From positions 143,530,001 to 143,594,000 of the forward strand of contig NC_091984.1 in the NCBI RefSeq assembly GCF_044704955.1: a DNA stretch of 64,000 nt, in the 5' to 3' direction. The DNA is from Pristiophorus japonicus (Eukaryota). Shown piece after piece: positions 261 to 56,589 of the stretch. Every line of letters begins with the position of its first letter. Position 1 is the stretch's first letter. Position numbers and translations under genes: made by a program. The notes beneath the pieces are model-generated. The model did not search any database, was not told the DNA's origin, and saw nothing but the letters and a program-made list of their open reading frames with translations.

Positions 261-1830
261 GTCTCACCAATACCCTGTGCAGATGTAGCAGGACTTCTCT
301 GCTTTTATACTCCATCCCCCTTACAATAAAGGGCAACATTACATTAGCTTCCCTTATCACTTGCTGTACCTGCATACTAACTTTTTGTGTTTCATGCACC
401 AGGACCCCCAGGTCCCTCTGTACTGCAGCAGTTTGCAAGTTTTCTCCTTTTAAATAATAAATTGCTTTCCTATTCTTTCTGCCAAATGGATAACCTCACA
501 TTTTCCCACATTATACTCCATCTGCCAACGTTTTGCCCACTCACTGAGCCTGTCTATATCCCTTTGCAGATTTTTAGTGTCCTCTTCACAATGTGCTTTC
601 CCAGCCACCATCATAGGCAGTCCCTCGGAATTGAGGAAGACTTGCTTCCAATCTTAAAATGAGTCGTTAGGTGACTGAGCAGTCCAATACGAGAACCACA
701 GTCCCTGCCACAGGTGGGACAGACAGTCACTGAGGGTAAGGGAGGGTGGGACAGGTTTGCTGCACGTTCCTTCCGCTGCCTGCACTTGATTTCTGCATGC
801 ACCACGGCGATGAGATGCGAAGTGCTCAGCGCCATCCCAGATACATTTCCTCCACTTCGGGAAGTCTTTGGCCAGGGTCTCCCAGGTGTCAGTGGGGATT
901 TTTCACTTCATCAGGGAGGCTTTGAGGGTGTCCTTGTAACGTTCCTCTGCCCACCTTTGGCTAGTTTGCCGTGAAAGAGTTCCGAGTAGAGCGAGTATTC
1001 AAAAAGGAGTTAGATGTAGTCCTTACTACTAGGGTTAGGGTTAGGGGTCAAGGGGTATGGCGAGAAAGCAGGAATGGGGTACTGAAGTTGCATGTTCAGC
1101 CATGAACTCATTGAATGACGGTGCAGGCTCGAAGGGCCGAATGGCCTACTCCTGCACCTAGTTTCTATGTTTCTATGTTTCTATGTTTGGGTGTCTTGTA
1201 TCTGGCATGTGGACAATGTGGCCTGCCCATGGAGCTGATCAAGTGTGGTCATGCTTCAATGCTGGGGATGTTGACCTGGTCGAGGACACTAATGTTGGTG
1301 CGTCTGTCCTCCCAGCAAATTTTGCTACTTTACACTCAGTTCCTTCGTCATTAATAGAGATTGGAAATAATTGAGGCCACAGCACCGATCCCTGTGGCAC
1401 CTCACTAGTTACTGTTTGCCAAAGGGAAAATGACCCATTTATCCTGATTCTCTGTTTTCTGTTAGTTAGCCAATCTTCTATCCATGCTAATATATTACCC
1501 CCAACCCCGTGAACTTTTATCTTGTGTCTTTTATGTGGCACCTTATCGAATGCCTTCTGGAAATACAAATACACCACATCCACTGGTTCCCCTTTGTCCA
1601 CCCTGCTCGTTACATCCTCAAAGAATTCCAGCAAATTTGTCAAACATGATTTCCCTTTCATAAAACCATGCTGACTCTGCTTGATTGAAATACGCTTTTC
1701 CAAATGTCCTGCTACTGCTTCCTTAATAATGGACTCCAGCATTTTCCCAACGACAGATGTTAGGCTAACTGGTCTATAGTTTCCTGCTTTCTGTCTGCCT
1801 CCTTTTTTAAATAGGGGCGTTACATTTGCT
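261..1830. mobile_element. Interleaved CR1 and RTE fragments
   Basis: CR1 RT pieces (261-603, 1319-1830 minus; 993-1185 plus); RTE 3' end with CPTCGRDCGSRIGLLSH zinc finger (608-992 minus). Confidence 0.85.
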
Positions 1831-1897
1831 GTGCGTGCTTTGGAGAGGGCGTTAAAAGGAGCGGCGACATCCAGAATACCAGATTTTGCCTCAATTC

Positions 1898-2315
1898 AAC
1901 AACAACAACTTGTATTTATATAGCGCCTTTAACGTAGTGAAATGTCCCAAGGCACTTCCCAGGCGTATTATGAGATACAAAATTTGACACCAAGTCACAA
2001 AAGAAGAAATTAGTGTAGGTGACTAAAGAGGTATGTTTTAAGGATCGTCTTGAAGGAGGAAAGAGAAGTAGAGAGGCGGAGAGGTTTAGGGAGAGAGTTC
2101 CAGAGCTTGGGGTCTCGGCAACAGAAGGCACGGCCACCAATGGTTGAGCGATTATAATCAGGGATGCTCAGGAGGGCAGAATTGGAGGAGCACAGACATT
2201 TCGGGGGCTTGTGGGGCTGGAGGAGATTACAGAGATAGGGAGGGGCGAGGCCATGGAGGGATTTGAAAACAAGGATGAGAATTTTAAAAATCGAGGCATT
2301 GCTTAACCGGAAGCT
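1898..2315 (-). mobile_element. L2-clade LINE 3' end
   Basis: FKILILVFKSLHGLAPPYL...GGRAF...LWNSLP; (TTG)n tail; homologous to 15546-16245. Confidence 0.8.
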
Positions 2316-3868
2316 GATGTTGGTCTCTACCCTCCCCTTTCCCCCGCCCCCCCGAGCTGCTCCCAAGCCTCGCTCCCTCCCCTCCCTCACTCCTGCCTTC
2401 CTCACACCCCATCCCTCCTTCTCCCTCCCCCCAATCCCAACCCTCCCATCCATCACCCTGCACTCCCTCCCCACCTCCGTGCCCCCCTACCTCACATGCC
2501 CCTCCTCCCCCCCCCATCCTCTCTGTCCCTCCCAAACTGGAGTAGCCCATTCGGCCCCTCGAGCCTGCTCCACCATTCAATGAGATCATGGCTGATCATT
2601 TATCACAACTCCACTTTCCTGCACTGTCCCCATATCTCTCGATTCCCTTAATATCCAAAAATCTATCGATCTCCATCTTAAATATACTCAACGACTGAGC
2701 CTCCACAGCCCTCTGGGGTAAAAAAATTCCAACGATTCACTACATTTTCTGAGTGAAGAGGTTTCTCCTCATCTCAGTCCTAAATAGAGGACCCCTTATT
2801 CTGAGACTGTGACCCCTGGTTCTTGACTCCCCAGCCAGAGGAAACATCCTCCCTGCATCTACCCTGTGAAGCCCTGTCAGAATTCTGTATGTTTCAATGA
2901 GATCCCCTCTCATTCTTCGAAACTAGAGAGTATAGGTCTAGTCTACTCAATCTCTCCAAAGGACAATCCCCCATCCCAGATGTCCGTCTGATGTGTCAGC
3001 GTGTTTGTCACATGTGACGGAGCAGACAGCAGGAGTTCCACCAGCAACACAGGACGTTACCTCAGTGCCCGGCCCACTTTCCCCATCCACTTACCACATT
3101 CTTACAGGTAAACGGGCTCAGCCCCTGCCCTCGGCCGGTGAAATGTCTCCCCTCTACACCACAGGCTGCCCGTCATCTGTTCCCCATCTCACTACTGAAG
3201 GCATTACCTCTGGCTGGGGCACAGCTCCCCTCCCCAAGTGGGCTCACTGTCCCAGTGTGAGCCCAGAGACTGAGCTCCCAAGTGGGCTCACTGTCCCAGT
3301 GTGAGCATTTCAGGCTAATCGACCATGAGGTCTCAGCCGTGGCTCAGTCACTAGCACGCTCGTCTCTGAGAAAAGAAAGAAAGACTAGCATTTATATAGC
3401 GCCTTTCACAACCGCCAGACATCCCAAATGCTTTACAGCCAATGAAGTAATTTTTGAAGTGTACTCACTGTCGTAATGTCGGATATGCAGCAGCCAATTT
3501 GTGCACAGCAAGCTCCCACAAACTGCAATGTGATGATGACCAAATAACCTGTTTTTGTTATGTTGATTGAGGAATAAATATTGGCCAGGACACCGCAGTG
3601 GGATTTGAACCCTCAAATTCTGACTCAGAGACTAGGGTGCTACCAACTGAGCCACTGGCTGACTCCATTCGGCCCATCTTGTCCGCGCTGGCCGACAAAG
3701 GGCTATCCAGCCTAATCCCACTTTCCAGTTCTGGGTCCGTAGCCCTGTAGGTTACGGCACTTCAAGTGTATATCCAAGTACTTCTTAAATGTGGAGATTG
3801 TTTCTGCCTCTACAACCCTTTCAGGCAGTGAGTTCCAGACCCCCACCATCCTCTGGGTGAAGGCATTT

Positions 3869-6235
3869 CATAAGAACATAACAACATAAGAATTAGGAAC
3901 AGGAGTAGGCCATCTAGCCCCTCGAGCCTGCTCCGCCATTATACAAGATCATGGCTGATCTGGCCGTAGACTCAGCTCCACTTACCCGCCCGCTTCCCAG
4001 AACCCTTAATTGCCTTATTGGTTAAAAATCTATCTATCTGTGATTTGAATACATTCAATGAGCTAGCCTCAACTGCTTCCTTGGGCAGAGAATTCCACAG
4101 ATTCACAACTCTCTGGGAGAAGAAATTTCTTCTCAACTTGGTTTTAAATTGGCTCCCCCATATTTTGAGGCTGTGCCCCCTAGTTCTCGTCTCCCCGACC
4201 AGTGGAAACAACCTCTCTGCCTCTATCTTGTCTATCCCTTTCATTATTTTAAATGTTTCTACAATATCACCCCTCATCCTTCTGAACTCCAACGAGTAAA
4301 GACCCAGTCTACTCAATCTATCATCATAAGGTAACCCCCTCATCTCTGGAATCAGCTGAGTGAATCGTCTCTGTACCCCCTCCAAAGCTAGCATATACTT
4401 CCTTAAGTAAGGTGACCAAAACTGCACGCAGTACTCCAGGTGCGGCCTCACCAATACCCTGTACATTTGCAGCAGGACCTCCCTGCTTTTGTACTCCATC
4501 CCTCTCGCAATGAAGGCCAACATTCCATTCGCCTTCCTGATTACCTGCTGCACCTGCAAACTAACTTTTTGGGATTCATGCACAAGGACCCCCAGGTCCC
4601 TCTGCACCGCAGCATGTTGTAATTTCTCCCCATTCAAATAATATTTCCTTTTACTGTTTTTTTTTTCCAAGGTGGATGATCTCATATTTCCTGACATTGT
4701 ATTCCATCTGCCAAACCTTAGCCCATTCGCTTAATCTATCTAAATCTCTTTGCAGCTTCTCTGTGTCCTCTACACAACCCGCTTTCCCACTAATCTTTGT
4801 GTCATCTGCAAATTTTGTTACGTTACACTCTGTCCCCTCTTCCAGGTCATTGTAAACAGTTGTGGTCCCAGCACCGATCTCTGTGGCACACGACTAACCA
4901 CTGATTCCAACCCGAAAAGAATCCATTTATCCCGAATCTCTGCTTTCTGTTAGCCAGCCAATTCTCTATCCATGCTAATACATTTCCTCTGACCCCGCGT
5001 ACCTTTATCTTCTGCAGTAACCTTTTGTGTGGCACCTTATTGAATGCCTTTTGGAAATCTAAATACACCACATCCATCGGTACACCTCTATCCACCATGC
5101 TTGTTATATCCTCAAAGAATTCCAGTAAATTAGTTAAACATGATTTCCCCTTCATGAATCCATGTTGCGTCTGCTTGATTGCACTATTCCTATGTAGATG
5201 ACCCGCTATTTCTTCCTTAATGATAGCTTCAAGCATTTTCCCACTACAGATGTTAAACTAACCGACCTATAGTTACCTGCCTTTTGTCTGCCCCCTTTTT
5301 AAAACAGAGGCGTCACATTAGCTGCTTTCCAATCCGCTGGTACCTCCCCAGAGTCCAGAGAATTTTGGTAGATTATAACGAATGCATCTGCTATAACTTC
5401 CACATCTCTTTTAATACCCTGGGATGCATTTCATCAGGACCAGGGGACTTGTCTACCTTGAGTCCCATTAGCCTGTCTAGCACTACCCCTCTAGTGATAG
5501 TGATTGTCTCAAGGTCCTCCGTTCCTACATTCACGTGACCAGCAATTTTTGACATGGTTTCTGTGTCTTCCACTGTGAAGACCGAAGCAAAATAATTGTT
5601 TAAGGTCTCAGCCATTTCCACATTTCCCATTATTAAATCCCCCTTCTCATCTTCTAAGGGACCAACATTTACTTTAATCACTCCTTTCCGTTTTATATAT
5701 CGGTAAAATCTTTTACTATCTGTTTTTATGTTTTGCGCAAGTTTACTTTCGTAATCTATCTTTCCTTTCTTTATTGCTTTCTTAGTCATTCTTTGCTGTC
5801 GTTTAAAATTTTCCCAATCTTCTAGTTTCCCACTAACCTTGGCCACCTTATACCCATTGGTTTTTAATTTGATACTCTCCTTTATTCCTTGGTTATCCAC
5901 GGCTGGTTATCCCTTCTCTTCCCGCCCTTCTTTTCACTGGAATATATTTTTGTTGAGCACTATGAAAGAGCTCCGTCCAGTCCTCCACTGTTCCTCAATT
6001 GTGCCACCGTTTAGTCTGTGTTTCCAGTCTACTTTAGCCAACTCTGCCCTCATCCCACTGCAGTCCCCTTTGTTGAAGCACAGTACGCTCGTTTGAGACA
6101 CTACTTCCTCACCCTCAATCTGTATTACAATATCAACCATACTGTGATCACTCATTCCGAGAGGATCTTTTACTTGGAGATCGTTTATTATTCCTGTCTC
6201 ATGACACAGGACCAGATCTAAGATAGCTTGCTCCC
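3869..6235 (-). mobile_element. CR1 LINE 3' part
   Basis: RT and C-terminal ORFs 3972-5900; CATAAGAA tail; splits an older CR1. Confidence 0.9.
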
Positions 6236-7035
6236 TGCTCCCTTCCCCTCACATACCCTCGAAACCTCCGACCAATTACTTTAAATCTATGCCCCCTGGT
6301 TGTTGACCCCTCTGCTAAGGGAAATAGATCCTTCCTATCCACTCTACTTCAGCCCCTCATAAGTTTATACACCTCAATAAGGTCTCCCCTCAGCCTCCTC
6401 TGTTCCACGGAAAACACCCCCAGCCTATCCAATCTTTCCTCATGGCTAAAATTTTCCAGTCCAGGCAACATCCTCGTAAATCTGCCTTTGTGCAATTGGT
6501 TGTAAAGCACCTTTGGATGTCCTGAGGTGGTGAAAGGCGCTATATAAATTCAAGGCTTTCTTTCATTGAAGTGGGAGGGCCCTGATCCTAACCCTCACCC
6601 ATTGTCCGCGCACTCTGACCTTCCAGGAGGTCACGGGATCATTGGGAGCAGTGACCCTGTCTGACCTCGGTATTTTGAGGCTAATTGTCGCCTCACCCTT
6701 GACCTCACCCCGGTGCTGGGCAGCAAGCTTTTAAATACAATCTAGAAGCTTCTACACCGTCACCCAACATGAAGCCTTGCTGAAGTGTGTTTATACAAGT
6801 GTGTCGCAATATTCCCAGATAAAGTTCTCCCGATCTGTGTGTGATCTGAGCTTTCTCACTGCTGAGCCTGTTTCCCCTGTATCCACCCATCTACAGTTCG
6901 AGCTTCCTGCCAGTGAACAGCATCTTAACGGGACACTCAGTCTTTACCGACTCTTACTGTTAACCATTTCAGTGCTGAATGTGTGCCAACCCTGCACTGC
7001 AGATGTTTATACAACAGTCCAATATGATTTTGAGT

Positions 7036-7330
7036 ATCAGCCATAGCTCAGTGCGTTGCACTCTCGCCTCTGAGTCAGAAGGTTGTGGGTTCAAGTCCCA
7101 CTCCAGGGACTTGAGCACAAAAATCTAGGCTGACACTCCAGTGCAGTGCTGAGGGAGAGCTGCACTGTTGGAGGGGCCGTCTTTCAGATGAGACGTTAAA
7201 CCGAGGCCCAGTCTGCCCTCTCAGGTGGATGTAAAAGATCCCAGGACGCTATTTTGAAGAAGAGCAGGGGAGTTCCCCCCGGTGTCCTGGTCAATATTAA
7301 TCCATCAAGCAACATGACAGAAGAACACAT
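7036..7330 (+). mobile_element. tRNA-derived SINE (related copies at 12705-12985 and 3330-3660)
   Basis: A-box-like TAGCTCAGTG and B-box-like GGTTCAAGTCC, with a body shared among copies. Confidence 0.75.
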
Positions 7331-8703
7331 TATCACCACACTCTGAGTGAAGATGTTTATCCTCATCTCAGTTCGAAATGGCTGACCTCTTATTCGGAGA
7401 CTGTGACCCCTGGTTCTCGACTCCCCAGCCAGACGAAACATCCTCCCTGCATCTACCCTGTAAAGCCTTGTCAGAATTGTATATGTTTCAATGGGATCCC
7501 TTCTCATTCTTCAAAACTCTAGAGAGTACAGACCTTGGAACTTGCGGAACCAGGTGGGTAGATGGAGTTCAGATACAGATGAGCAATGATCTGATTGAAT
7601 GGGGGAACAGGCTCAAGGGGCTGAATGGCCTCCTCCTGTTCATTGTGTCCAGCAGCAGCTGTGTACCTCTCCGCAACCTCATCTTGACTTTTATCAGTCG
7701 CATCAGAGCCTTGATTCCCTCACCAGGGGGTTGGTGTTTCCAGATCAATGTCCAGCTGATCGATGCCATGAGTCAGACTCAGTGAGCGCTGTCAGAGGAT
7801 GGAAAGGCTGCTCTCACTGCAGCCTTGTTCTAATGCATTTGGGGAGGGGCAACAAGGCAAGGGAATTCACAATAAATGGAATGGTACTGAGAGGGGTGGA
7901 GGAACGGAGGGACCTTGGAGTGCATGTCCACAGATCCCTGAAGGTAGCAGGCCAGGTCGATAAGGTGGTTAAAAAGGCATATGGAATACTTGCCTTTATT
8001 AGCTGAGGCATTTGAATACAAGAGCAGGGAGGTTATGCTTGAACTGTATAAAACACTAGTTAGGCCACAGCTAGAGTACTGCGTGCAGTCCTGGTCACCA
8101 CATTACAGGAAAGATGTGATTACAGGAAAGATGTGATTACAGAGGAGATTCACGAGGATGTTGCCAGAACTGGACAATTTTAGCTCTGAGGGAAGATTGG
8201 ATCTGCTGGGGGTGTTTTCTTTGGAACAGAGGAGGCTGAGGGGAGACCTTATTGAGGTGTGTAAAATGATGAGGGGCCTAGATAGAGTGGATAGAATGGA
8301 CCCATTTCCCTTAGCAGAGGGGTCAACAACCAGGGGGCATAGATTTAAAATAATTGGTGGAAGGTTTAGAGGGGAGATGAGGAAACAATTCTTCACCCAG
8401 AGGGTGGTGGGGGTCTGGAACTCACTGCCTGAAAGGGTGGTAGAGGCAAAAACTCTCACCACATTTAAAAAGTACTTGGATGTGCACTTAAAGTGCCGTA
8501 ACTCACAGGGCTACGGACCCAGAGCTGTGTAGCTCTTTGTTGACCGGCGCGGACATGATGGGCCGAAATGGCCTCCTTCCGTCCTGTAATTTTCTGTGAT
8601 TCTATGGTGGTGTTGACCACTTTAAAAGACGCAGCATACATTTTATTGAAACTATTTCTGTTCCCGGTTTCCCCGCTGCCAATAATTGGATCAATTGATG
8701 CTG

Positions 8704-8719
8704 CAGCGCCCCCTTGTGG
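8704..8719 (-). promoter_or_regulatory. CTCF-like site
   Basis: CCACAAGGGGGCGCTG on minus, in a short non-repeat island. Confidence 0.55.
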
Positions 8720-9029
8720 TACATCTATATGTGCTCCACCCAAACCCCTGCTTTCAACCCTTGAACCCACATTGCCTATGCTTGCTGGAGCCCCGCTCCT
8801 TTATCACAGCATCTCACAGCACAGAGGGAGGCTATTCGGCCTATCAAACCTGTGCTGGCTCTTTGAAAGAACTGTGGACTACAATGGCCTCGACTAATGA
8901 TCCAGAGACACGAGTTCAAATCCCACCACGGCAACTGGGGAATTTAAATTCAGTTGATTAAATAAATTTGGAATAAAAAGCTAGTGTCAGTAATGGTGAC
9001 CATGAAACTGCCGGATTGTCACAAAAACC

Positions 9030-12000
9030 CATCGACCTGGCCTGCTCCCTTCAGGGATCTGTGGACATGCAAACCCAGGTCCCTTTGTTCCTCGACACCT
9101 CTCAGTGTCCTACCATTTAATGTGTATTCCCTTGCCTTGATAGACCTCCCCAAATGCATGACCTCACACTTCTCCGGATTAAATTCCATTTGCCACTGTT
9201 CTGCCCACCTGATCATTTCATTGATATCTTTCTGCAATCTGCAGCTCTTTTCTTCATTATCAACCACATGACCGATTTTAGTATCATCTGCAAACTTCTG
9301 AATCATACCCCCTACATTCAAGTCCAAATCATTGATATGTACCACAAAAAGTTAGGGACCTTGTACTGACCTCTGCAGAACCCCACTGGAAACAGCCTTC
9401 CAGTCACAAAAACACCCATCAACCATTACCCTTTGCTTCCTGCCTCTGAGCCAATTTTGGATCCAACTTGCAACTTTGCCCTGGATCTCATGGGCTTTTA
9501 CCTTCGTGACCAGTCTGCAATGTGGCACCTTATCAAAAGTCTTGGTAAAATCCATATACACTACATCAAATGCACTGCCCTCATCGACCCTCCTTATTAC
9601 TTCTTCGGTGAATTCAATTAAGTTCGTCAGACACGACCTTCCCTGAACAAATCCATCCTGACTGTCCTTGATTAATCCCTCTATCTTAATGAAGATTTAA
9701 CCTGTCTCTCAGGAGTTTTTTCCAATAACTTTCCCACTACTGAGGTTAGGCTGACTGGCCTGTAATTACTCGGTCTATCCCTTTCTCCCTTTTTAAACAA
9801 AGATACAATGTTAGCAGTCCTCCAGTCCTCCTGCACCACACCTGTAGCCAGAGAGGATTGGAAAATGATGGTCAGAGCCTCTGCTATTTCCTCTTTTGAT
9901 TCTCTTAATAGCCTGGGATACATTTCATCCGGGCCAGGGGATTTATCCACTCTCAAAGCTGCTAAGCTCCTTAATACTTCCTCTCTCACTATGTTTCTTT
10001 CATCTCATATTTCCCACTCCTCCTCCCTGATTGCAATGTCTGCATTGCTCCTCTCTTTTGTGAAAACAGATGCAAAGTGTTCATTAAGAACCAGACCCAC
10101 GTTTTATGCCTCCACACACAGATTACCTTTATGGTCTCTAATAGGCCCAACTCTTTCTTTAATTATCCTCCTGCTCGTAATGTATTTATAAAACATCTTT
10201 GGGTCTTCCTTGATTTTACTTGCCAAAATGTTTTCATGCTCTCTCTATGCTTTCCTAATTTACTTTTTAATTGCACCCCTGCACTTTCTATACCCCTCTA
10301 AAGTTCCTGCAGTATTGAGCCCTCGGTATCTGTCATAAGCCTCCCTTTTTTAATTTATCCTACACTGTATTTCCCTTGACATCAAGAGGCCTCGAGATTT
10401 GTTAGCCCCACTTTTTCTTTAAGGGAACAGACTTACTCTGAAACTACAGGATTTCCTCCTTGAATGCCTCCCACTGCTCTGACACTGATTTACCTTCAAG
10501 TAGCCGTTTCCAGTCCACTTTGGCCAAATCTCATCTCAGCTCAGCAAAATTGGCTTTTCCCCAACTGAGAACTTTTATTCCTGCTCTATCTTTGTCCTTT
10601 TCCATAACTACCCTAAATCTAACTGAATTATGATCACTAGCACCAAAATGCTCTCCCACTGATACCCCTTCCACCTGCCCCTCTTCATCCCCCCAAACCA
10701 AGTCCAGAACCGTCCCCTCCCTTGTTGGGCTTGTTACAAACTGGCTAAAAAAGTTCTCCTGAAGGCATTTTAGGAATTCCGCACCCTCTATATCTTTCAC
10801 ATTAATTTTATCCCAGTTAATATTAGGGTAGTTGAAATCCCCTACTATAACTGCCCTATAGTTTTTGCACTTGTCAGAAATGGGCCGACATATTTGATCT
10901 TCTCTCTCCCTCTGACTGTTTGGGGGTCTATAGTACACTCCCAGCAGTGTGATTACCCCTTTTTCGTTCTTCAATTCGACCTATATGGCCTCATTTGATG
11001 ATCTTTCCGACATATCATCCCTCCTCATAGCTGTAATTGTTTCTTTCAATTGTTTCAGAACAGCGACCCCCTCCTTTTTTATCCCCCTCTCTATCCCGTC
11101 TGAAATCCTGTAACCAGGAATGTTGAGCTGCCATACCTGCCCTTCTTTCAGCCATGTCTCAGTAATAGCTATAATATCGTACTCCCAAGTGTCTATCTGT
11201 GCTCTCAGCTCATCTGCCTTATTCCCTATACTCCATGCATTGAAGTATATACCATTTAGCACTGCCAAACTGCCTTGTTGTCTATTTTCTAGGCTTTGTT
11301 TCCTCTGTCTTCCAAAATCACTTTCTATTTTTCTGCTTTCCAATTCCAGCTTTGCTTCTCTTCCCACTGAATCCATTCTCAGGTTCCCATCCCCTGGCAA
11401 GCAAGTTTAAACCCTCCCCAAAGGCAATAGCAAATCCCCCCACAACGATATTCGTCCCGGCTCTGTTGAGGTGCAACCCATCCGGCTTGTACAGGTCCCA
11501 CCTGCCCCAGAAATGGTCCCAATGCCTTAGGAAACTAAAGCCCTCTCTCCTGCAACATCTTTCTAGCCATGTAGTCATCTGCTCTACCCTCCTATTTCTG
11601 TAGTCACTATTGTGAGCTCAAAATAAAGTGTGACGTTAGTCTTTTTTGCAGGTCTCCAGAGTGCCCCCGCATCCTGTGAAGCCTCCTTAAATACCTTTGC
11701 TCTCAAGCGATTATGGGATTCCTTGGGACTCCAGGGGATGAGCCCTTTGGTGGCTGTACATAGTAAATACAAGTCCACATATACAACAACTAGCACGTGG
11801 CACTGGCAGTAATACGGAGATTACTACCTTTGAGGTCTTGCTTTTTTATCTCTCTCCTTGGTCCCTACTCTCCCCCTGTAGGATCTCATCCCTCTTTCTA
11901 CCTGTGTCATTGGTACAGATATGGACCACAACCTCTGGCTGTTCACCCTCCCCCCTCAGAATGTACTGCAGCCTCTCAGTGACATCCTTGACCCTGGCAC

Positions 12001-12545
12001 CAGGCAGGCAACATACCATCCTGGAGTCACGTCTGCGGCCGCAAAAATGCCTGTCTGTTCCCCGAACTATCGAATCCCCTACCACTATTGCTCTTCCACT
12101 CTTCTTCCTCCTCCCTGTGCAGCTGAGCCACCCGTGGTGCCGTGGACTTGGCTCTGGCTGCATTTCCTAGAGGTACCATCGCCCCCACCAGTACTCAGAA
12201 CACAATACTGGTTGGAGAGCGAGATGGACTCAGGGGACTCCTGCACTACCTGCCTGGACCTCCTCTTCTGTCTGGTGGTCACCCATTCCCTCTCTGCCTG
12301 CACAGTCTTAAGCTGCGGGGTGACCACCTCTAGAAACGTGTTATCCACGAAGTTCTCAGCCTCATGGATGCACCGTAGTGACTCCAGCCACCGCTCAATC
12401 TCCGAAACGCGGAGCTCGAGTTGCTGTAGCTGGTGACACTTCCTGCACATGTGGTCGTCCAGGCCACGAGAAGTGTCCAGGACTTCCCACATGGCACAGG
12501 ATGTGCACTGCACGGGATAGAACTGCTCTGCCATGCCTCTATTTA
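9030..12545 (-). mobile_element. Degraded long CR1 LINE with ORF1 (CxxC...CxxC, coiled coil, SGNH) and ORF2 pieces
   Basis: ORFs 12085-12669, 11846-12163, 11318-11578, 10531-11400 and 9019-9989. Confidence 0.9.
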
Positions 12546-12990
12546 ATAGACTGAGAAGTGACTGAGCAGAAATAAACTTAAAACTATTAAAAAAACAAAT
12601 AATAGCCTGGCCTACATCAGTTAGGCCATAATTTGTGGATTCTTTCATCCCACTGAGGGCGAACACCATCGATGGGCCATTAATGGTCTTAAGTTTTCAG
12701 CTCAGTCAGCTGTGGCTCAATGGGCAGCACATTCGTCTCTGAGTCCAAAAGTTGTAGGTTCAAGTCCCACTCCAGAGACTAAGCTCAGAAATCTAGACTG
12801 ACAGTCCCAGTGCAGGACTGAGGTAGTGATGCACTGTTGGAGGAGCCGTCTTTCTGGTGAGAGGTTAAACCGAGGCCTTGCCTGCCCTCTCAGGTGGGTG
12901 TTAACAATCCCATGCCACTACTTTGAAGAAGAGCAGGGGAGTTTTGCCTGGTGTCCTGGCCAATATTTATTCCTCAATCAAAATCAGACT

Positions 12991-19366: not shown

Positions 19367-22300
19367 GCAATAGTGATTGGGGATTCAATGGTGAGGGGAA
19401 TAGATAGGCGTTTCTGCGGCCGCAACCGAGACTCCAGGATGGTATGTTGCCTCCCTGGTGCAAGGGTCAAGGATGTCTCGGAGCGGGTGCAGGACATTCT
19501 AAAAAGGGAGGGAGAACAGCCAGTTGTCGTGGTGCACATTGGTACCAACGACATAGGTAAAAAAAGGGATGAGGTCCTACGAAACGAATTTAAGGAGCTA
19601 GGAGCTAAATTAAAAAGTAGGACCTCAAAAGTAGTAATCTCGGGATTGCTACCAGTGCCATGTGATAGTCAGAGTAGGAATCGCAGGATAGCGCAGATGA
19701 ATACGTGGCTTGAGCAGTGGTGCAACAGGGAGGGATTCAAATTCCTGGGGCATTGGAACCGGTTCTGGGGGAGGTGGGACCAGTACAAACCGGACGGTCT
19801 GCACCTGGGCAGGACCGGAACCAATGTCCTAGAGGGAGTGTTTGCTAGTGCTGTTGGGGAGGATTTAAACTGATATGGCAGGGGGATGGGAACCAATGCA
19901 GGGAGACAGAGGGAAACAAAAAGGAGGCAAAAGCAAAAGACAGAAAGGAGATGAGGAAAAGTGGAGGGCAGAGAAACCCAAGGCAAAGAACAAAAAGGGC
20001 CACTGTACAGCAAAATTCTAAAAGGACAAAGGGTGTTAAAAGAACAAGCCTGAAGGCTTTGTGTCTTAATGCAAGGAGTATCTGCAATAAAGTGGATGAA
20101 TTAACTGTGCAAATAGATGTTAACAAATATGATGTGATTGGGATTACAGAGAAGTGGCTCCGGAATGATCAGGGCTGGGAACTCAACATCCAGGGGTATT
20201 CAACATTCAGGAAAGATAGAATAAAAGGAAAAGGAGGTGGGGTAGCATTGCTGGTTAAGGAGCAAATTAAGGCAATAGTTCGGAAGAACATTAGCTTGGA
20301 TGATGTGGAATCTATATGGGTAGAGCTGCAGAATACCAAAGGACAAAAAACGTTAGTGGGAGTTGTGTACAGACCTCCAAACATTAGTAGTGATGTTGGG
20401 GAGGGCATCAAACATGAAATTAGGGGTGCGTGCAATAAAGGTGCAGCAGTTATAATGGGTGACTTTAATATGCACATAGATTGGGTTAACCAAACTGGAA
20501 GCAATACGGTAGAGGAGGATTTCCTGGAGTGCATAAGGGATGGTTTTTTAGACCAATATGTCGAGGAACCAACTAGGGGGGAGGCCATCTTAGACTGGGT
20601 GTTGTGTAATGAGAGAGGATTAATTAGCAATCTCGTTGTGCGAGGCCCCTTGGGGAAGAGTGACCATAATATGGTGGAATTCTGCATTAGGATGGAGAAT
20701 GAAACAGTTAATTCAGAGACCATGGTCCAGAACTTAAAGAAGGGTAACTTTGAAGGTATGAGGCGTGAATTGGCTAGGATAGATTGGCGAATGATACTGA
20801 AGGGGTTGACTGTGGATGGGCAATGGCAGACATTTAGAGACCGCATGGATGAACTACAACAATTGTACATTCCTGTCTGTCGTAAAAATAAAAAAGGGAA
20901 GGTGGCTCAACCGTGGCTATCAAGGGAAATCAGGGATAGCATTAAAGCCAAGGAAGTGGCATACAAATTGGCCAGAAATAGCAGAGAACCCGGGGACTGG
21001 GAGAAATTTAGAACTCAGCAGAGGAGGACAAAGGGTTTGATTAGGGCAGGGAAAATGGAGTACGAGAAGAAGCTTGCAGGGAACATTAAGACGGATTGCA
21101 AAAGTTTCGATAGATATGTAAAGAGAAAAAGGTTAGTAAAGACAAACGTAGGTCCCCTGCAGTCAGAATCAGGGGAAGTCATAACGGGGAACAAAGAAAT
21201 GGCGGACCAATTGAACAATTACTTTGGTTCGGTATTCACTGAGGAGGACACAAACAACCTTCCGGATATAAAAGGGGTCGGAGGGTCTAGTAAGGAGGAG
21301 GAACTGAGGGAACTCCTTATTAGTCGGGAAATTGTGTTGGGAAAATTGATGGGATTGAAGGCCGATAAATCCCCAGGGCCTGATGGACTGCATCCCAGAG
21401 TACTTAAGGAGGTGGCCTTGGAAATAGTGGATGCATTGACAGTCATTTTCCAACATTCCATTGACTCTGGATCAGTTCCTATGGAGTGGAGGGTAGCCAA
21501 TGTAACCCCACTTTTTAAAAAAGGAGGGAGAGAGAAAACAGGGAATTACAGACCGGTCAGCCTGACATCGGTAGTGGGTAAAATGATGGAATCAATTATT
21601 AAGGATGTCATCGCAGTGCATTTGGAAAGAGGTAATATGATAGGTCCAAGTCAGCATGGATTTGTGAAAGGGAAATCATGCTTGACAAATCTTCTGGAAT
21701 TTTTTGAGGATGTTTCCAGTAGAGTGGACAAGGGAGAACCAGTTGATGTGGTATATTTGGACTTTCAGAAGGCTTTCGACAAGGTCCCACACAAGAGATT
21801 AATGTGCAAAGTTAAAGCACATGGGATTGGGGGTAGTGTGCTGACATGGATTGAGAACTGGTTGTCAGACAGGAAGCAAAGAGTAGGAGTAAATGGGGAC
21901 TTTTCAGAATGGCAGGCAGTGACTAGTGGGGTACCGCAGGGTTCTGTGCTGGGGCCCCAGCTTTTTACACTGTACATTAATGATTTAGACGAGGGGATTA
22001 AATGTAGTATCTCCAAATTTGCGGATGACACTAAGTTGGGTGGCAGTGTGAGCTGCGAGGAGGATGCTATGAGGCTGCAGAGCGACTTGGATAGGTTAGG
22101 TGAGTGGGCAAATGCATGGCAGATGAAGTATAATGTGGATAAATGTGAGGTTATCCACTTTGGTGGTAAAAACAGAGAGACAGACTATTATCTGAATGGT
22201 GACAGATTAGGAAAAGGGCAGGTGCAAAGAGACCTGGGTGTCATGGTACATCAGTCATTGAAGGTTGGCATGCAGGTACAGCACGCGGTTAAGAAAGCAA

Positions 22301-22957
22301 ATGGCATGTTGGCCTTCATAGCAAGGGGATTTGAGTACAAGGGCAGGGAGGTGTTGCTACAATTGTACAGGGCCTTGGTGAGGCCACACCTGGAGTATTG
22401 TGTACAGTTTTGGTCTCCTAACCTGAGGTAGGACATTCTTGCTATTGAGGGAGTGCAGCGAAGGTTCACCAGACTGATTCCCGGGATGGCGGGACTGACC
22501 TATCAAGAAAGACGGGATCAACTGGGCTTGTATTCACTGGAGTTCAGAAGAATGAGAGGGGACCTCATAGAAACGTTTAAAATTCTGACGGGGTTAGACA
22601 GGTTAGATGCAGGAAGAATGTTCCCAATGTTGGGGAAGTCCAGAACCAGGGGACACAGTCTAAGGATAAGGGGGAAGCCATTTAAGACCGAGATGAGGAG
22701 GAATTTCTTCACCCAGAGAGTGGTGAACCTGTGGAATTCTCTACCACAGAAAGTTGTTGAGGCCAATTCACTAAATATATTCAAAAAGGAGTTAGATGAA
22801 TTCCTTACTACTAGGGGAATCAAGGGGTATGGTGAGAAAGCAGGAATGGGGTACTGAAGTTGCATGTTCAGCCATGAACTCATTGAATGGCGGTGCAGGC
22901 TAGAAGGGCCAAATGGCCTACTCCTGCACCTATTTTCTATGTTTCTATGTTTCTATG
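19367..22957 (+). mobile_element. Young near-complete CR1 LINE (ORF1 SGNH esterase part plus ORF2 EN-RT)
   Basis: ORF1 GDS/GTND/DGLH (19373-19873). ORF2 from 19951 has APE (GDFN, LD, SDH) and RT, a single premature TAG at 22429 and continues to 22857. (TTTCTATG)3 tail; nested in an older CR1. Confidence 0.95.
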
Positions 22958-53156: not shown

Positions 53157-53268
53157 TGCTGACGTTGCTTTCTCTGAGTGAAGACATTTACATACTGAGG
53201 GATGGGCAGTGAGACTCTCACAGGCTGCAGGTTTCTAAAGCAGCGCCCAGTGAAGGGCAGTTTATCAG
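53157..53268 (+). promoter_or_regulatory. V promoter: CRE-like site, octamer variant, TATA-like element
   Basis: TGACGT at 53160, ATTTACAT at 53186-53193 (consensus ATTTGCAT) about 105 bp before the ATG, TTTATCA at 53261. Confidence 0.6.
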
Positions 53269-53298: not shown

Positions 53299-53347
53299 AT
53301 GATTTCACCCATCCAGCTGATCTGGCCTCTGGCATTCTGCGTCGCAA
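53299..53347 (+). pseudogene. IGKV: Ig kappa-type light-chain leader exon (MISPIQLIWPLAFCVA)
   Basis: ATG at 53299, 16 hydrophobic codons plus 1 nt, GT donor at 53348. Intron ends at polypyrimidine+CAG (53527) and continues in phase as (S)ISGDIIM. Resembles shark kappa (NS4-type) leaders as I recall them. Confidence 0.9.
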
Positions 53348-53527
53348 GTACCAATCTCTCTCCTTCCACGTTTAATATCTCCCTGCTGTCGATTCTTTCC
53401 AACTCTACTGACCAGTGATTGAAGGGCAAATGCTGACACTAGAGGAGAGCTCAGTGTCTCGAGCAATCTCTCAATTTACAGCGTCTTTCTAAGACAGTGC
53501 TTACTTCACTTTTTTTCCCCATTTCAG

Positions 53528-55094
53528 GTATCAGTGGGGACATCATCATGCTTGACAAATCTTCTGGAATTTTTTGAGGATGTTTCCAGTAGAGTGGACA
53601 AGGGAGAACCAGTTGATGTGGTATATTTGGACTTTCAGAAGGCTTTCGACAAGGTCCCACACAAGAGATTAATGTGCAAAGTTAAAGCACATGGGATTGG
53701 GGGTAGTGTGCTGACGTGGATTGAGAACTGGTTGTCAGACAGGAAGCAAAGAGTAGGAGTAAATGGGTACTTTTCAGAATGGCAGGCAGTGAGTAGTGGG
53801 ATACCGCAAGGTTCTGTGTTGGGGCCCCAGCTGTTTACATTGTACATTAATGATTTAGATGAGGGGATTAAATGTAGTATCTCCAAATTTGCGGATGACA
53901 CTAAGTTGGGTGGCAGTGTGAGCTGCGAGGAGGATGCTATGAGGCTGCAGAGTGACTTGGATAGGTTAGGTGAGTGGGCAAATGCATGGCAGATAAAGTA
54001 TAATGTGGATAAATGTGAGGTTATCCACTTTGGTGGTAAAAACAGAGAGACAGACTATTATCTGAATGGTGACAGATTAGGAAAAGGGGAGGTGCAACGA
54101 TACCTGGGTGTCATGGTACATCAGTCATTGAAGGTTGGCATGCAGGTACAGCACGCGGTTAAGAAAGCAAATGGCATGTTGACCTTCATAGCAAGGGGAT
54201 TTGAGTACAGGGGCAGGGAGGTGTTGCTACAGTTGTACAGGGCCTTGGTGAGGCCACACCTGGAGTATTGTGTACAGTTTTGGTCTCCTAACCTGAGGAA
54301 GGACATTCTTGCTATTGAGGGAGTGCAGCGAAGGTTCACCAGACTGATTCCCGGGATGGCGGGACTGACCTATCAAGAAAGACTGGATCAACTGGGCTTG
54401 TATTCACTGGAGTTCAGAAGAATGAGAGGGGACCTCATAGAAACGTTTAAAATTCTGACGGGGTGAGACAGGTTAGATGCAGGAAGAATGTTCCCAATGT
54501 TGGGGAAGTCCAGAACCAGGGGACACAGTCTAAGGATAAGGGGAAGCCATTTAGGACCGAGATGAGGAGGAATTTCTTCACCCCGAGAGTGGTGAACCTG
54601 TGGAATTCTCTACCACAGAAAGTAGTTGAGGCCAATTCACTAAATATATTCAAAAAGGAGTTAGATGGAGTCCTTACTACTAGGGGAATCAAGGGGTATG
54701 GTGAGAAAGCAGGAATGAGGTACTGAAGTTGCATGTTCAGCCATGAACTAATTGAATGGCGGTGCAGGCTAGAAGGGCCGAATGGCCTACTCCTGCACCT
54801 ATTTTCTATGTTTCTATGACCCAGTCTCCCCCGGTGATGTCAGTGAGTGAGGGACAGACTGCAAAGATCACCTGTACCGCCAGTGCATACATTGGTGCTG
54901 CCCTTGCTTGGTACCAGCAGAAAGCCGGGCAGAAACCCTCTCTGCTGATCTATGCGGCAACATCTCGTTTCACTGGAACCTCCAATCGCTTCAACGGCAG
55001 TTACCAGTCCAACACGTTCACCCTGAGCATCAGCAACGTGCAGAGCGAGGATGTCGCAGTCTATTACTGTCAGCAATATAATAGCTTCCCTCTA
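53528..55094 (+). pseudogene. IGKV: Ig kappa-type V exon interrupted in FR1 by a CR1 insertion
   Basis: 53528-53550 encodes ISGDIIM. After the insert, 54819 onward reads TQSPPVMSVSEGQTAKITC...WYQQKAGQKPSLLIY...EDVAVYYCQQYNSFP with conserved Cys, Trp and YYC. The spliced leader frame stops early inside CR1 (DIIMLDKSSGIF*). Confidence 0.95.
53551..54818 (+). mobile_element. 5'-truncated young CR1 LINE inserted in the V exon
   Basis: RT motifs ([23 protein letters not shown]) and TTTCTATG tail; nearly identical by eye to 21680-22957; ATG present at both junctions. Confidence 0.95.
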
Positions 55095-55122
55095 CACTGT
55101 GATACACAGCCACACAAAAACC
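55095..55122 (+). promoter_or_regulatory. V recombination signal, 12-bp spacer
   Basis: CACTGTG (55095-55101) + ATACACAGCCAC (12 nt) + ACAAAAACC (55114-55122); a V-side 12-RSS is the kappa-like configuration. Confidence 0.95.
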
Positions 55123-55509
55123 TCAATATACACAGCCCCACCTCCTGTATTGACTAACCCCACAGTTATATATAATATATAATAATGGACACACAGCCCC
55201 ACCTCCTGTACGGTTTTACACATGACTGACACACAGCTCGATGGGAGTGATGGCAGGAATATTCAGCTCGAAGCTGCAGTGAATTGGGAAAGGATGGAGT
55301 GGGTCAGAGAGGAGTTGGGGCTGTGTCTTCATCACTGACAATCTCACAGCTCTACTCTGTACATTCAGATAGCACGGAGACACTGAGTGGTCCCTGTGTT
55401 CTCAATCCAAATAATCTCACAAACCCCCCACTATTGAGAGGGCCACAACTTATAAAACCCAAAGCATAAACATGAAAGGAAAGTGAACAAGTGAAATGTT
55501 CGTGATCTT

Positions 55510-55940
55510 TCCCTGCCCACCCCGCACTCCAGGCCCTGCGGTGCCCAACCGTCGCAGATGCCTCAGGCCTACCCTAGGCTCTGTCCCCACGGCCAGCTGG
55601 ATGTGGACAAAGCATCTGAAGGGAGGGAGACAGGCAGACAGTGCAATCACCCCATGAGCCCTGTCCAACTGGGACCTGTGGATGGCCACCTTGGCCTGAT
55701 CCAGGAGCAGGCCCACGGGGAGGCCCTCCGACCTGCCCGATTCCCCTGCACCAGGTGACCAGGCCCAGGAGCGTGGGACTGAAGTGGAGCCAGAAATCGA
55801 GGAGCAGCCCCTTCAAATAGTGGAAGAGGGGCTGCATCCTCTCACACTCCACGTACACACGGGTCACGGACTGAGGAAACAGGTTTCTAAAGCCCCTGAA
55901 ACTCGTTATTTTATAATGATCCCGAGGAAGGCCTGTGTCA
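55510..55940 (-). mobile_element. Tx1/L1-clade 3' fragment in the V-J interval
   Basis: VYVECERMQPLFHYLKGLLLDFWLHFSPTLL and GLLLDQAKVAIHRS. Confidence 0.65.
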
Positions 55941-56405
55941 GCAACACAACATTTCGCTTGCAGACGGAGCCCGTTGTTCAAGGAGCACAAAGAGGTGAGG
56001 CCTGTGTGAAGGGGACTTTCATTCTCCAGCAATTCCGTGGCCCCAGGGTTACCGTCTGATGGGGCGGGAAGGGCAGCTGGGAGATTTGTCCCAAACACGT
56101 CGGATCCCCAACTCTCCTGGGCACTACCACAGGCAACTCGTCACAGAGTGAGAGGGAGGGAGTGAGTGAGGGACAGGGAAAGAGAGTGAGTGAGGGACGG
56201 AGTGAGGCGGAGTGAGTGAGGGAGGGAGGTGGAGGGGGAGAGGGAGGGAGTGAGAGAGGCAATCAGAGAGAGAAACAGAATGAGAGAGAGAGAGTGAGAA
56301 AGAGAGAGAAAAAGTGAGGGAGAGTGAGACGCTGAAAAAGACACAGACACAGACACACACACAGACAGAAAGAGGGGGAGAGAGACTGAGTGAGCCAGGG
56401 ACGGA

Positions 56406-56444
56406 GGATATTGTACAGCAACTGCACTGGAAGCTGTCACTGTG
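56406..56444 (-). promoter_or_regulatory. J recombination signal, 23-bp spacer
   Basis: On +: GGATATTGT (two mismatches to GGTTTTTGT) + 23 nt + CACTGTG, directly abutting the J segment. Confidence 0.9.
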
Positions 56445-56478
56445 GCTCACGTTCCTAAAGGAACCAAGCTCAGACTGA
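56445..56478 (+). pseudogene. IGKJ: Ig kappa-type J segment, frameshifted in the FGXG motif
   Basis: G CTC ACG TTC CT AAA GGA ACC AAG CTC AGA CTG A|GTAAGT = LTF[G]KGTKLRL with the Gly codon reduced to CT; consensus splice donor at 56479. Confidence 0.9.
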
Positions 56479-56589
56479 GTAAGTAAACCCCAATGCTCCG
56501 TTATTAACACTTTAAATACTGAATCTTTCTAAGACACAAATGCTGAATATGCGAAGGTGTTAGTTCACATATGATTACACACGATCCTC

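What the first reader, a model, noticed from the sequence alone, without database searches (positions are those of the whole stretch)
53299..56484. Germline kappa L-V-J cluster knocked out by a young CR1 at FR1 Met4
Seen: leader, V, near-consensus 12-RSS, 23-RSS and J are all present. A 1268-bp CR1 sits between ...GAC ATC ATC ATG and ACC CAG TCT; removing it restores an open V. The 5' junction shares ATCATG with CR1 and the 3' tail TTTCTATG shares ATG with the target. Inference: microhomology-primed insertion, recent enough that it may be polymorphic. The RSSs could still recombine, making this a non-productive decoy cluster.
Basis: partly seen in the sequence, partly recalled or inferred. Interest (0 to 1): 0.75.

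Follow-up and report, generated by a model that had tools for sequence, protein, structure and literature searches.

The report
Triplicated LINE-broken shark kappa pseudogene
This is an ordinary broken copy in a shark's array of about 60 antibody light-chain genes: a jumping-gene fragment splits it, and the same broken copy, with the same further damage, sits at three places in the assembly, so the insertion is likely old rather than fresh.

Summary
The anatomy is confirmed: leader, V, 12-RSS, 23-RSS and J of a shark kappa (NS4/type III) cluster, with an intact C exon 8.6 kb past the window end. A 1268-bp 5'-truncated CR1-type LINE follows the Met4 codon. It has 6-nt 5' microhomology (the only such match among 2628 possible truncation points) and ATG shared at the 3' tail; 58 of 61 clusters examined lack it. 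Three interpretations need correcting. (1) It is not a fresh single insertion: 3 of 61 clusters carry it at the same junction, 0.33-0.44% apart. (2) CR1 is not the only lesion: all three also share a 1-nt J deletion that destroys F-G-x-G, a leader donor -1 G>A and a TATA change, so which hit came first is unresolved. (3) The RSSs match the family majority, but decoy rearrangement is untested, and the one paper passage bearing on it reports none seen in nurse shark IgH pseudogenes. Verdict: an ordinary birth-and-death pseudogene, useful as a marker of 70-165 kb block duplications.

The parts
53186..53193 (+). Octamer-like motif ATTTACAT, the family form of the Ig promoter octamer (motif name recalled)
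   Evidence: Same 8-mer in 56 of the 57 CR1-free clusters read and in all 3 CR1 clusters
53232..53240 (+). TATA-like box, changed to TTTCTAAAG (family form TTTATAAAG)
   Evidence: Changed in 3 of 3 CR1 clusters and 2 of 57 CR1-free clusters read; 54 of 57 have the family form
53299..53347 (+). Leader exon 1 (MISPIQLIWPLAFCVA); donor -1 base is A where the family has G
   Evidence: 55 of 57 CR1-free clusters read have CAG|GT, none CAA|GT; exact pattern found 3 times in the genome
53348..53527 (+). Leader intron, 180 bp, GT..AG
   Evidence: nurse shark NS4 intron is 186 bp (PMC2193156 passage)
53528..53550 (+). V exon 5' piece: end of leader plus D-I-I-M; its last 6 nt ATCATG are shared with the LINE
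53551..54818 (+). 5'-truncated CR1-type non-LTR retrotransposon, sense to the gene: 304 open codons of RT and C-terminus, a stop at 54464, a 3' UTR and two TTTCTATG tail units
   Evidence: RVT_1 E 5.6e-23; relatives in rays, turtles and birds; 6487 genomic candidates, 40 scored, best unlinked copies 98%; junctions
54819..55094 (+). Rest of V exon (FR1 Thr5 to CDR3), open, both Cys and the Trp kept
55095..55122 (+). 12-RSS (CACTGTG / 12 / ACAAAAACC)
   Evidence: heptamer and nonamer identical in 53 of 56 CR1-free clusters read
56406..56444 (-). 23-RSS (reads GGATATTGT / 23 / CACTGTG on the + strand)
   Evidence: same nonamer in 34 of 42 CR1-free J segments read
56445..56478 (+). J segment, 34 nt instead of 35; 1-nt deletion at 56455-56459, so the C-compatible frame reads AHVPKGTKLRL instead of LTF(G/S)KGTKLRL
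   Evidence: 42 of 42 CR1-free unjoined J segments read are 35 nt; exact deletion pattern found 3 times in the genome
56479..64000 (+). J splice donor GTAAGT (56479-56484) and the first part of the 16.1-kb J-C intron. The C-kappa exon lies 8.6 kb beyond the window end (L031:8615-8943) and has an open reading frame
   Evidence: Donor. C exon; C1-set E 7.9e-24; 78% to horn shark kappa P0011, 75% to nurse shark P0014

Best explanation
This is a germline, unrearranged shark Ig kappa L-V-J-C cluster whose V exon is split by a 5'-truncated CR1-type LINE that likely inserted once by target-primed reverse transcription with microhomology at both ends, after which the likely dead cluster was copied inside large duplicated blocks to three places in the assembled array. 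Shown: the anatomy, the empty site in siblings, both junction overlaps, a stop 8 codons into the insert, three copies with the same junction, and three further shared lesions (J deletion, donor -1 change, TATA change). Inferred: the tail's ATG annealed to the nicked target and the target's ATCATG end annealed to the cDNA, fixing the truncation point; all four lesions arose on one stem lineage before the duplications; the cluster makes no light chain and persists by neutral birth-and-death. The order of the four lesions is unresolved. The LINE's own divergence fits an early-to-mid place on the stem.
For: Empty site in 58 of 61 clusters (54 exact, 4 with substitutions) and the insert in 3 of 61. 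The three form one clade, 100/99 (bootstrap flagged as rough). They are 0.33-0.44% apart over 18 kb, against 2.5-2.7% from two CR1-free siblings, with 228 shared derived sites among 17122 polarisable. Upstream neighbour clusters lie 68166, 68158 and 68338 bp away and also form a clade. A 6-nt overlap occurs at 1 of 2628 possible truncation points, the one used. LINE 5' joining by annealing is described in PMC4760211 (passages). A 51-nt contig in run X1 matches 53521-53571 with no differences. Nurse shark NS4 has about 50 genes including pseudogenes (PMC2193156 passages). Other broken members occur here too: L005, L012, L029, L090, L099.
Against: The X1 contig has only 30 and 21 letters either side of the junction, short of the tool's 31-letter bridging rule, and X1 may be the assembly's own sample. 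The 3' junction was not shown in any listed contig. Divergence of 0.33-0.44% is only about twice the epaulette shark diversity of 0.002 (PMC10587355), so one of the three copies could be a mis-placed haplotype. The LINE diverges faster than its flanks between two copies (12 of 1268 against 83 of 18980, Fisher p 0.017), which weakens dating. The 28 comparison copies were chosen by similarity to the query. C and V remain open and the RSSs intact, as expected for either recent death or conversion. No expression data were available.
Confidence: 0.88

Rival explanations
1. The cluster was already dead (J deletion, donor or TATA change) and the LINE landed in a pseudogene, so it is a passenger and not the knock-out. 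This is a variant of the best explanation that differs only in order.
For: All three other lesions are shared by 3 of 3 CR1 copies. The stem is long (228 sites, 1.3%). The TATA change also occurs in 2 CR1-free clusters, L030 and L106, of another clade.
Against: No CR1-free cluster has the J deletion or the donor change (exact patterns give 3 hits each). The LINE's 22 of 1268 differences from the majority (1.7%) are as large as the stem plus tips (about 1.5%), which fits an early insertion, though the LINE may evolve faster.
Confidence: 0.4
2. The three clusters are active decoys: intact RSSs let RAG join V to J non-productively in B cells, using up rearrangement attempts.
For: The 12-RSS matches 53 of 56 and the 23-RSS nonamer 34 of 42 CR1-free siblings; the octamer-like motif and C exon are intact. 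Out-of-frame joins are common in shark B cells (PMC2435157 passages).
Against: The TATA-like box is changed. PMC2435157 states that rearrangements in nurse shark IgH pseudogenes were not observed by Southern blot (a different locus and a blunt method). Three of about 60 clusters would be a small sink.
Confidence: 0.3
3. It is a single, very recent, segregating insertion, with the extra copies being assembly duplications, or it is an assembly chimera.
For: The family is young: the best unlinked copies are 98% identical. An empty-site contig exists in X1. Contig C1231 looks like an uncollapsed second haplotype, so this assembly may hold redundant sequence.
Against: A diploid has two alleles, not three. 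The copies differ at 60-80 sites in 18 kb and lie 1.8 and 3.9 Mb apart. The empty-site contig is explained by 54 paralogues. The junction contig has depth 38.2 against 791.9 for the empty site, about 2-3 copies' worth (the tool warns depth is no copy number). The LINE copies differ from each other at up to 13 sites.
Confidence: 0.05

Closest known systems
Nurse shark NS4 / horn shark type III (Ig kappa) split V-J-C clusters (PMC2193156)
   Same: Cluster layout L-V-J-C, 12/23 RSS, near-identical leader, V 66-72% and C 75-78% amino-acid identity, tens of copies, a mix of split, joined and pseudogene members.
   Different: V-J spacer about 1.3 kb against about 500 bp in NS4; the V exon is split by a LINE; J has lost F-G-x-G. 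The passages read list stops, splice and RSS defects in NS4 pseudogenes, not LINE insertions.
5'-truncated CR1/L2-type LINE integrants joined by the annealing pathway (PMC4760211)
   Same: 5' truncation, 5' microhomology, little or no loss of target DNA, short repeated 3' tail.
   Different: The 6-nt 5' overlap is longer than the 1-2 bp reported for zebrafish LINEs in DT40 cells. A target-site duplication of 0-3 bp cannot be resolved, because the element itself carries ATG at both ends.
Birth-and-death evolution of Ig V genes (recalled concept)
   Same: Duplication of blocks that carry both intact and dead members.
   Different: Here whole L-V-J-C clusters in 70-165 kb blocks are copied, and the LINE gives an unambiguous lineage tag.

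Membership tests
Ig kappa light chain (NS4 / type III) | 12-bp-spacer RSS after V and 23-bp-spacer RSS before J | tested here: met
   kappa type is 12/23 (PMC5985310 passage). Not exclusive to kappa.
Ig kappa light chain (NS4 / type III) | CDR2 of 3 residues and CDR1 of 6-12 (IMGT lengths) | tested here: met
   CDR1 AYIGAA (6) and CDR2 AAT (3), counted by me from gapless alignments to mammalian light-chain V domains; criterion from PMC5985310
Ig kappa light chain (NS4 / type III) | V and C closest to curated shark kappa chains | tested here: met
   C 78% to horn shark 'kappa light chain secretory form' P0011; V 66% to P0011 and 72% to nurse shark P0014. Some automatic labels say 'lambda-like' (P0002, P0014).
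Ig kappa light chain (NS4 / type III) | Tree placement against labelled lambda, sigma and sigma-2 chains | not tested
   No labelled shark lambda, sigma or sigma-2 sequences were retrieved
Ig sigma-2 (NS5 / type I / sigma-cart), my first recalled guess | CDR1 of 8 and CDR2 of 7 residues | tested here: not met
   Lengths are 6 and 3
Functional Ig kappa cluster | Uninterrupted V exon | tested here: not met
   Stop at 53575 after 32 codons
Functional Ig kappa cluster | J with F-G-x-G in the frame of C | tested here: not met
   Reads AHVPKGTKLRL
CR1-clade non-LTR retrotransposon | RT domain related to those of known CR1-rich genomes | tested here: met
   RVT_1; 134 hits at E<=1e-100, 120 listed, in rays, turtles, birds and others, none of the listed labelled CR1 by name; that these are CR1 is recalled
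CR1-clade non-LTR retrotransposon | 5' truncation and a short repeated 8-nt 3' tail in place of poly(A) | tested here: met
   27 of 28 other copies continue 5' with shared element sequence; tails are TTTCTATG repeats. The feature itself is recalled.
CR1-clade non-LTR retrotransposon | RT tree placement or match to a named repeat-library family | not tested
   No repeat library among the tools; no clade tree built
Polymorphic (segregating) insertion | Filled and empty alleles at one orthologous site among individuals | tested here: inconclusive
   Other samples were too shallow to show a 3-copy junction

The most novel reading that the evidence does not exclude
The three LINE-tagged clusters are still cut and joined by RAG in B cells despite a damaged TATA box and donor. 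They would then be a natural experiment on what licenses a shark cluster to rearrange, and would put a sense LINE RT fragment inside a hypermutating Ig transcription unit.
Probability: 0.25. Interest if true: 0.45.

Novelty: new member of a known kind. Interest (0 to 1): 0.22.

Why it matters
Modestly. It is a clean case of a LINE joined by microhomology at both ends, with its empty site preserved in dozens of paralogues. It also tags one lineage in a roughly 5-Mb shark kappa array, showing that blocks holding two or three clusters were copied whether or not the clusters worked. If the tagged clusters rearrange, they would test whether promoter integrity gates RAG access in multi-cluster Ig loci. 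It also shows that an automatic gene model (P0002) probably miscalls this locus as protein-coding.

Tried and rejected
Sigma-2/NS5 isotype, my first guess from memory: rejected by labels and CDR lengths. A decayed 23-RSS nonamer as a lesion: rejected, it is the family form in 34 of 42. The octamer variant as a lesion: rejected, 56 of 57 share it. The J deletion as an absolute frameshift null: softened, because imprecise joining could restore frame, though Phe-Gly would still be lost. The empty-site joint in X1 as proof of polymorphism: rejected, paralogues explain it. Expression: no RNA holder listed. Polymorphism: X5, X6 and X8 have depth at most about 12 over the leader and V, summed over the whole Ig family, and X9 laid only one LINE contig, so the absence of a junction means nothing; 6 of 24 listed runs were laid. 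A conversion tract inside the LINE (9 of 12 differences within 228 bp): differences fall 6 and 6 on each branch, so not resolved. Earlier scan findings: none near the place or by words. Literature: searches for shark+immunoglobulin+cluster+pseudogene+CR1, retrotransposon insertion in V segments, sawshark genome and cartilaginous-fish kappa organisation listed no title on this locus; listings only, and most subscription papers are not searched. PMC7094790 was not held. No supplements were opened.

Full report
Observation. The window carries a leader exon (53299-53347), a 180-bp intron, and a V exon that starts at 53528 and is interrupted after the codons D-I-I-M by 1268 bp (53551-54818), resuming at 54819 and ending at a 12-RSS (55095-55122). 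A 23-RSS (56406-56444), J (56445-56478) and donor follow. The loose RSS scans alone are at chance level (1 hit against 0.92 expected; 2 against 0.67), so the RSSs rest on position and conservation. The V matches V-set (E 1.8e-16) and the insert RVT_1 (E 5.6e-23). An open C exon lies 16.1 kb after J, 8.6 kb past the window end (L031:8615-8943).

Isotype. My recalled first guess was sigma-2; it failed. The C exon is 78% identical to a horn shark chain labelled kappa and 75% to a nurse shark chain, and the V is 66% and 72% identical to them. PMC2193156 (passages) equates NS4 with type III and gives a 186-bp leader intron and a J ending in A; PMC5985310 (passages) equates NS4/type III with kappa and gives CDR2 of 3 for kappa against 7 for sigma-2. 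Here CDR1 is 6 and CDR2 is 3 (my count). The C exon is 100% identical to a protein labelled Pristiophorus japonicus (P0002), so the genome is likely that shark. No tree against other isotypes was built.

The array. The V lies in a large family: 70 candidates, 40 scored; an exact 26-nt FR1 pattern occurs 58 times, 46 of them within C8:143.5-148.8 Mb. I examined 61 clusters: 54 have the exact empty site, 4 have it with substitutions, and 3 carry the insert at the identical junction (window, C8:145.39 Mb, C8:147.52 Mb).

Junctions. Of 28 other copies of the element, 27 continue upstream with shared element sequence; in most it ends in ATCATG, and the target shares exactly those 6 nt. Sliding the truncation point along one long copy, 1 of 2628 positions gives 6 nt with this target end, and it is the one used (target end held fixed). 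The tail is TTTCTATG repeats, and its last ATG coincides with the Met4 codon. The empty site has one ATG and the filled site two, so a 0-3 bp target duplication cannot be told apart. This fits target-primed reverse transcription with annealing-type 5' joining (PMC4760211 passages); the mechanism is inferred, not shown.

More lesions. All three CR1 clusters have a 34-nt J against 35 nt in 42 of 42 unjoined CR1-free J segments read (15 lay outside the fetched stretch or were not found; 1 is germline-joined). In the frame of C it reads AHVPKGTKLRL, losing Phe-Gly. All three have CAA|GT at the leader donor against CAG|GT in 55 of 57, and TTTCTAAAG against TTTATAAAG in 54 of 57, with 2 CR1-free clusters sharing that TATA change. 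Exact genome searches for the J deletion and the donor change each give the same 3 places. The effect of the donor and TATA changes is predicted only. The LINE alone would suffice to kill the protein: a spliced leader hits TGA at 53575.

Age. The three clusters form one clade (100/99) inside a 12-member subfamily with a 179-180 bp intron (all 61 rows kept, bootstrap flagged rough). Over 18 kb they differ by 0.33%, 0.44% and 0.43%, and from two CR1-free siblings by 2.5-2.7%; 228 of 17122 polarisable sites are shared derived. Neighbour spacing (68166, 68158, 68338 bp upstream; 96116 and 95828 bp downstream for two copies) shows blocks of two or three clusters were copied. The embedded LINE differs from the majority of the 28 other copies at 22-23 columns, those copies at 5-15, and its nearest unlinked copy is 21 differences away (copies selected by similarity, 40 of 6487 scored). 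At the epaulette shark rate of 7e-10 per generation (PMC10587355 passages), 0.22% per lineage is about 3 million generations. That is my arithmetic with another shark's rate, and conversion between paralogues could distort it. The insertion therefore belongs to a young family but is likely not a fresh allele.

Reads. In X1 a 51-nt contig matches 53521-53571 without differences at depth 38.2; the empty-site contig has depth 791.9. The ratio suggests 2-3 copies against 43-54 empty sites. This is weak: the contig fails the 31-letter bridging rule, depth is no copy number, X1 may be the assembly's sample, and no listed contig showed the 3' junction. Other samples were too shallow, so polymorphism is untested.

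Decoy idea. The RSSs equal the family majority (53 of 56 and 34 of 42), so RAG could in principle act. Against it are the TATA change and the statement in PMC2435157 (passage) that rearrangement of nurse shark IgH pseudogenes was not observed. It is untested here.

Results against my reading. The copies are only about twice as divergent as alleles in another shark, and C1231 looks like a redundant haplotype, so one copy could be a false duplication. The LINE diverged about twice as fast as its flanks (p 0.017). V and C are still open.

Verdict. New member of a known kind; interest 0.22.

Noticed in passing
L090 (G000:C8:146963967 onward): A germline-joined kappa VJ with no RSS or spacer, joined out of frame (stop just after the joint). 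Same kind as the joined NS4 pseudogenes in PMC2193156.
   Followed up: partly
G000:C1231 against C8:146.1-146.4 Mb (L105/L086, L010/L012, L104/L087): Three clusters are identical or nearly so, with matching spacing (64834 vs 64822; 140191 vs 140229 bp); the next cluster then differs. C1231 is likely the other haplotype with a different cluster layout, or another duplicated block.
   Followed up: partly
P0002; window 54920-55990 and L031:8615-8943: An automatic model labelled 'lambda-1 light chain-like' joins half of this V, spacer sequence and this C exon while skipping J; it is probably a false protein-coding call on this pseudogene.
   Followed up: partly
window 21681-22949: A second, longer copy of the same young LINE family, 97.7% identical to the insert; about 20 older relatives also lie in the window.
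   Followed up: partly
L045 region (cluster of L012, near G000:C8:146.194 Mb): The C exon is frameshifted by a deletion. Other broken members: L005 (stop in FR1), L029 (stop in leader), L099 (J donor AT).
   Followed up: no
L004, L006-L012: The CR1-free sister clusters mostly have J reading F-S-K-G rather than F-G-K-G (8 of 9; L005 keeps G), so the whole subfamily may be impaired.
   Followed up: no
window 1313-12634: Sequence 87-93% like the J-C intron of sibling clusters, probably belonging to the upstream cluster L076, but no C exon was found in the window. It may lie in the unfetched 10 kb before the window, or be lost.
   Followed up: no
window 53793-54020 against L003/L048: Nine of 12 LINE differences between the window copy and the 147.5 Mb copy fall within 228 bp, a possible ectopic conversion tract.
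   Followed up: partly
L013-L015, L024, L027 just after the 12-RSS; window 55130-55210: A 61-bp unit after the 12-RSS is tandemly expanded up to about 8 copies in some clusters.
   Followed up: no
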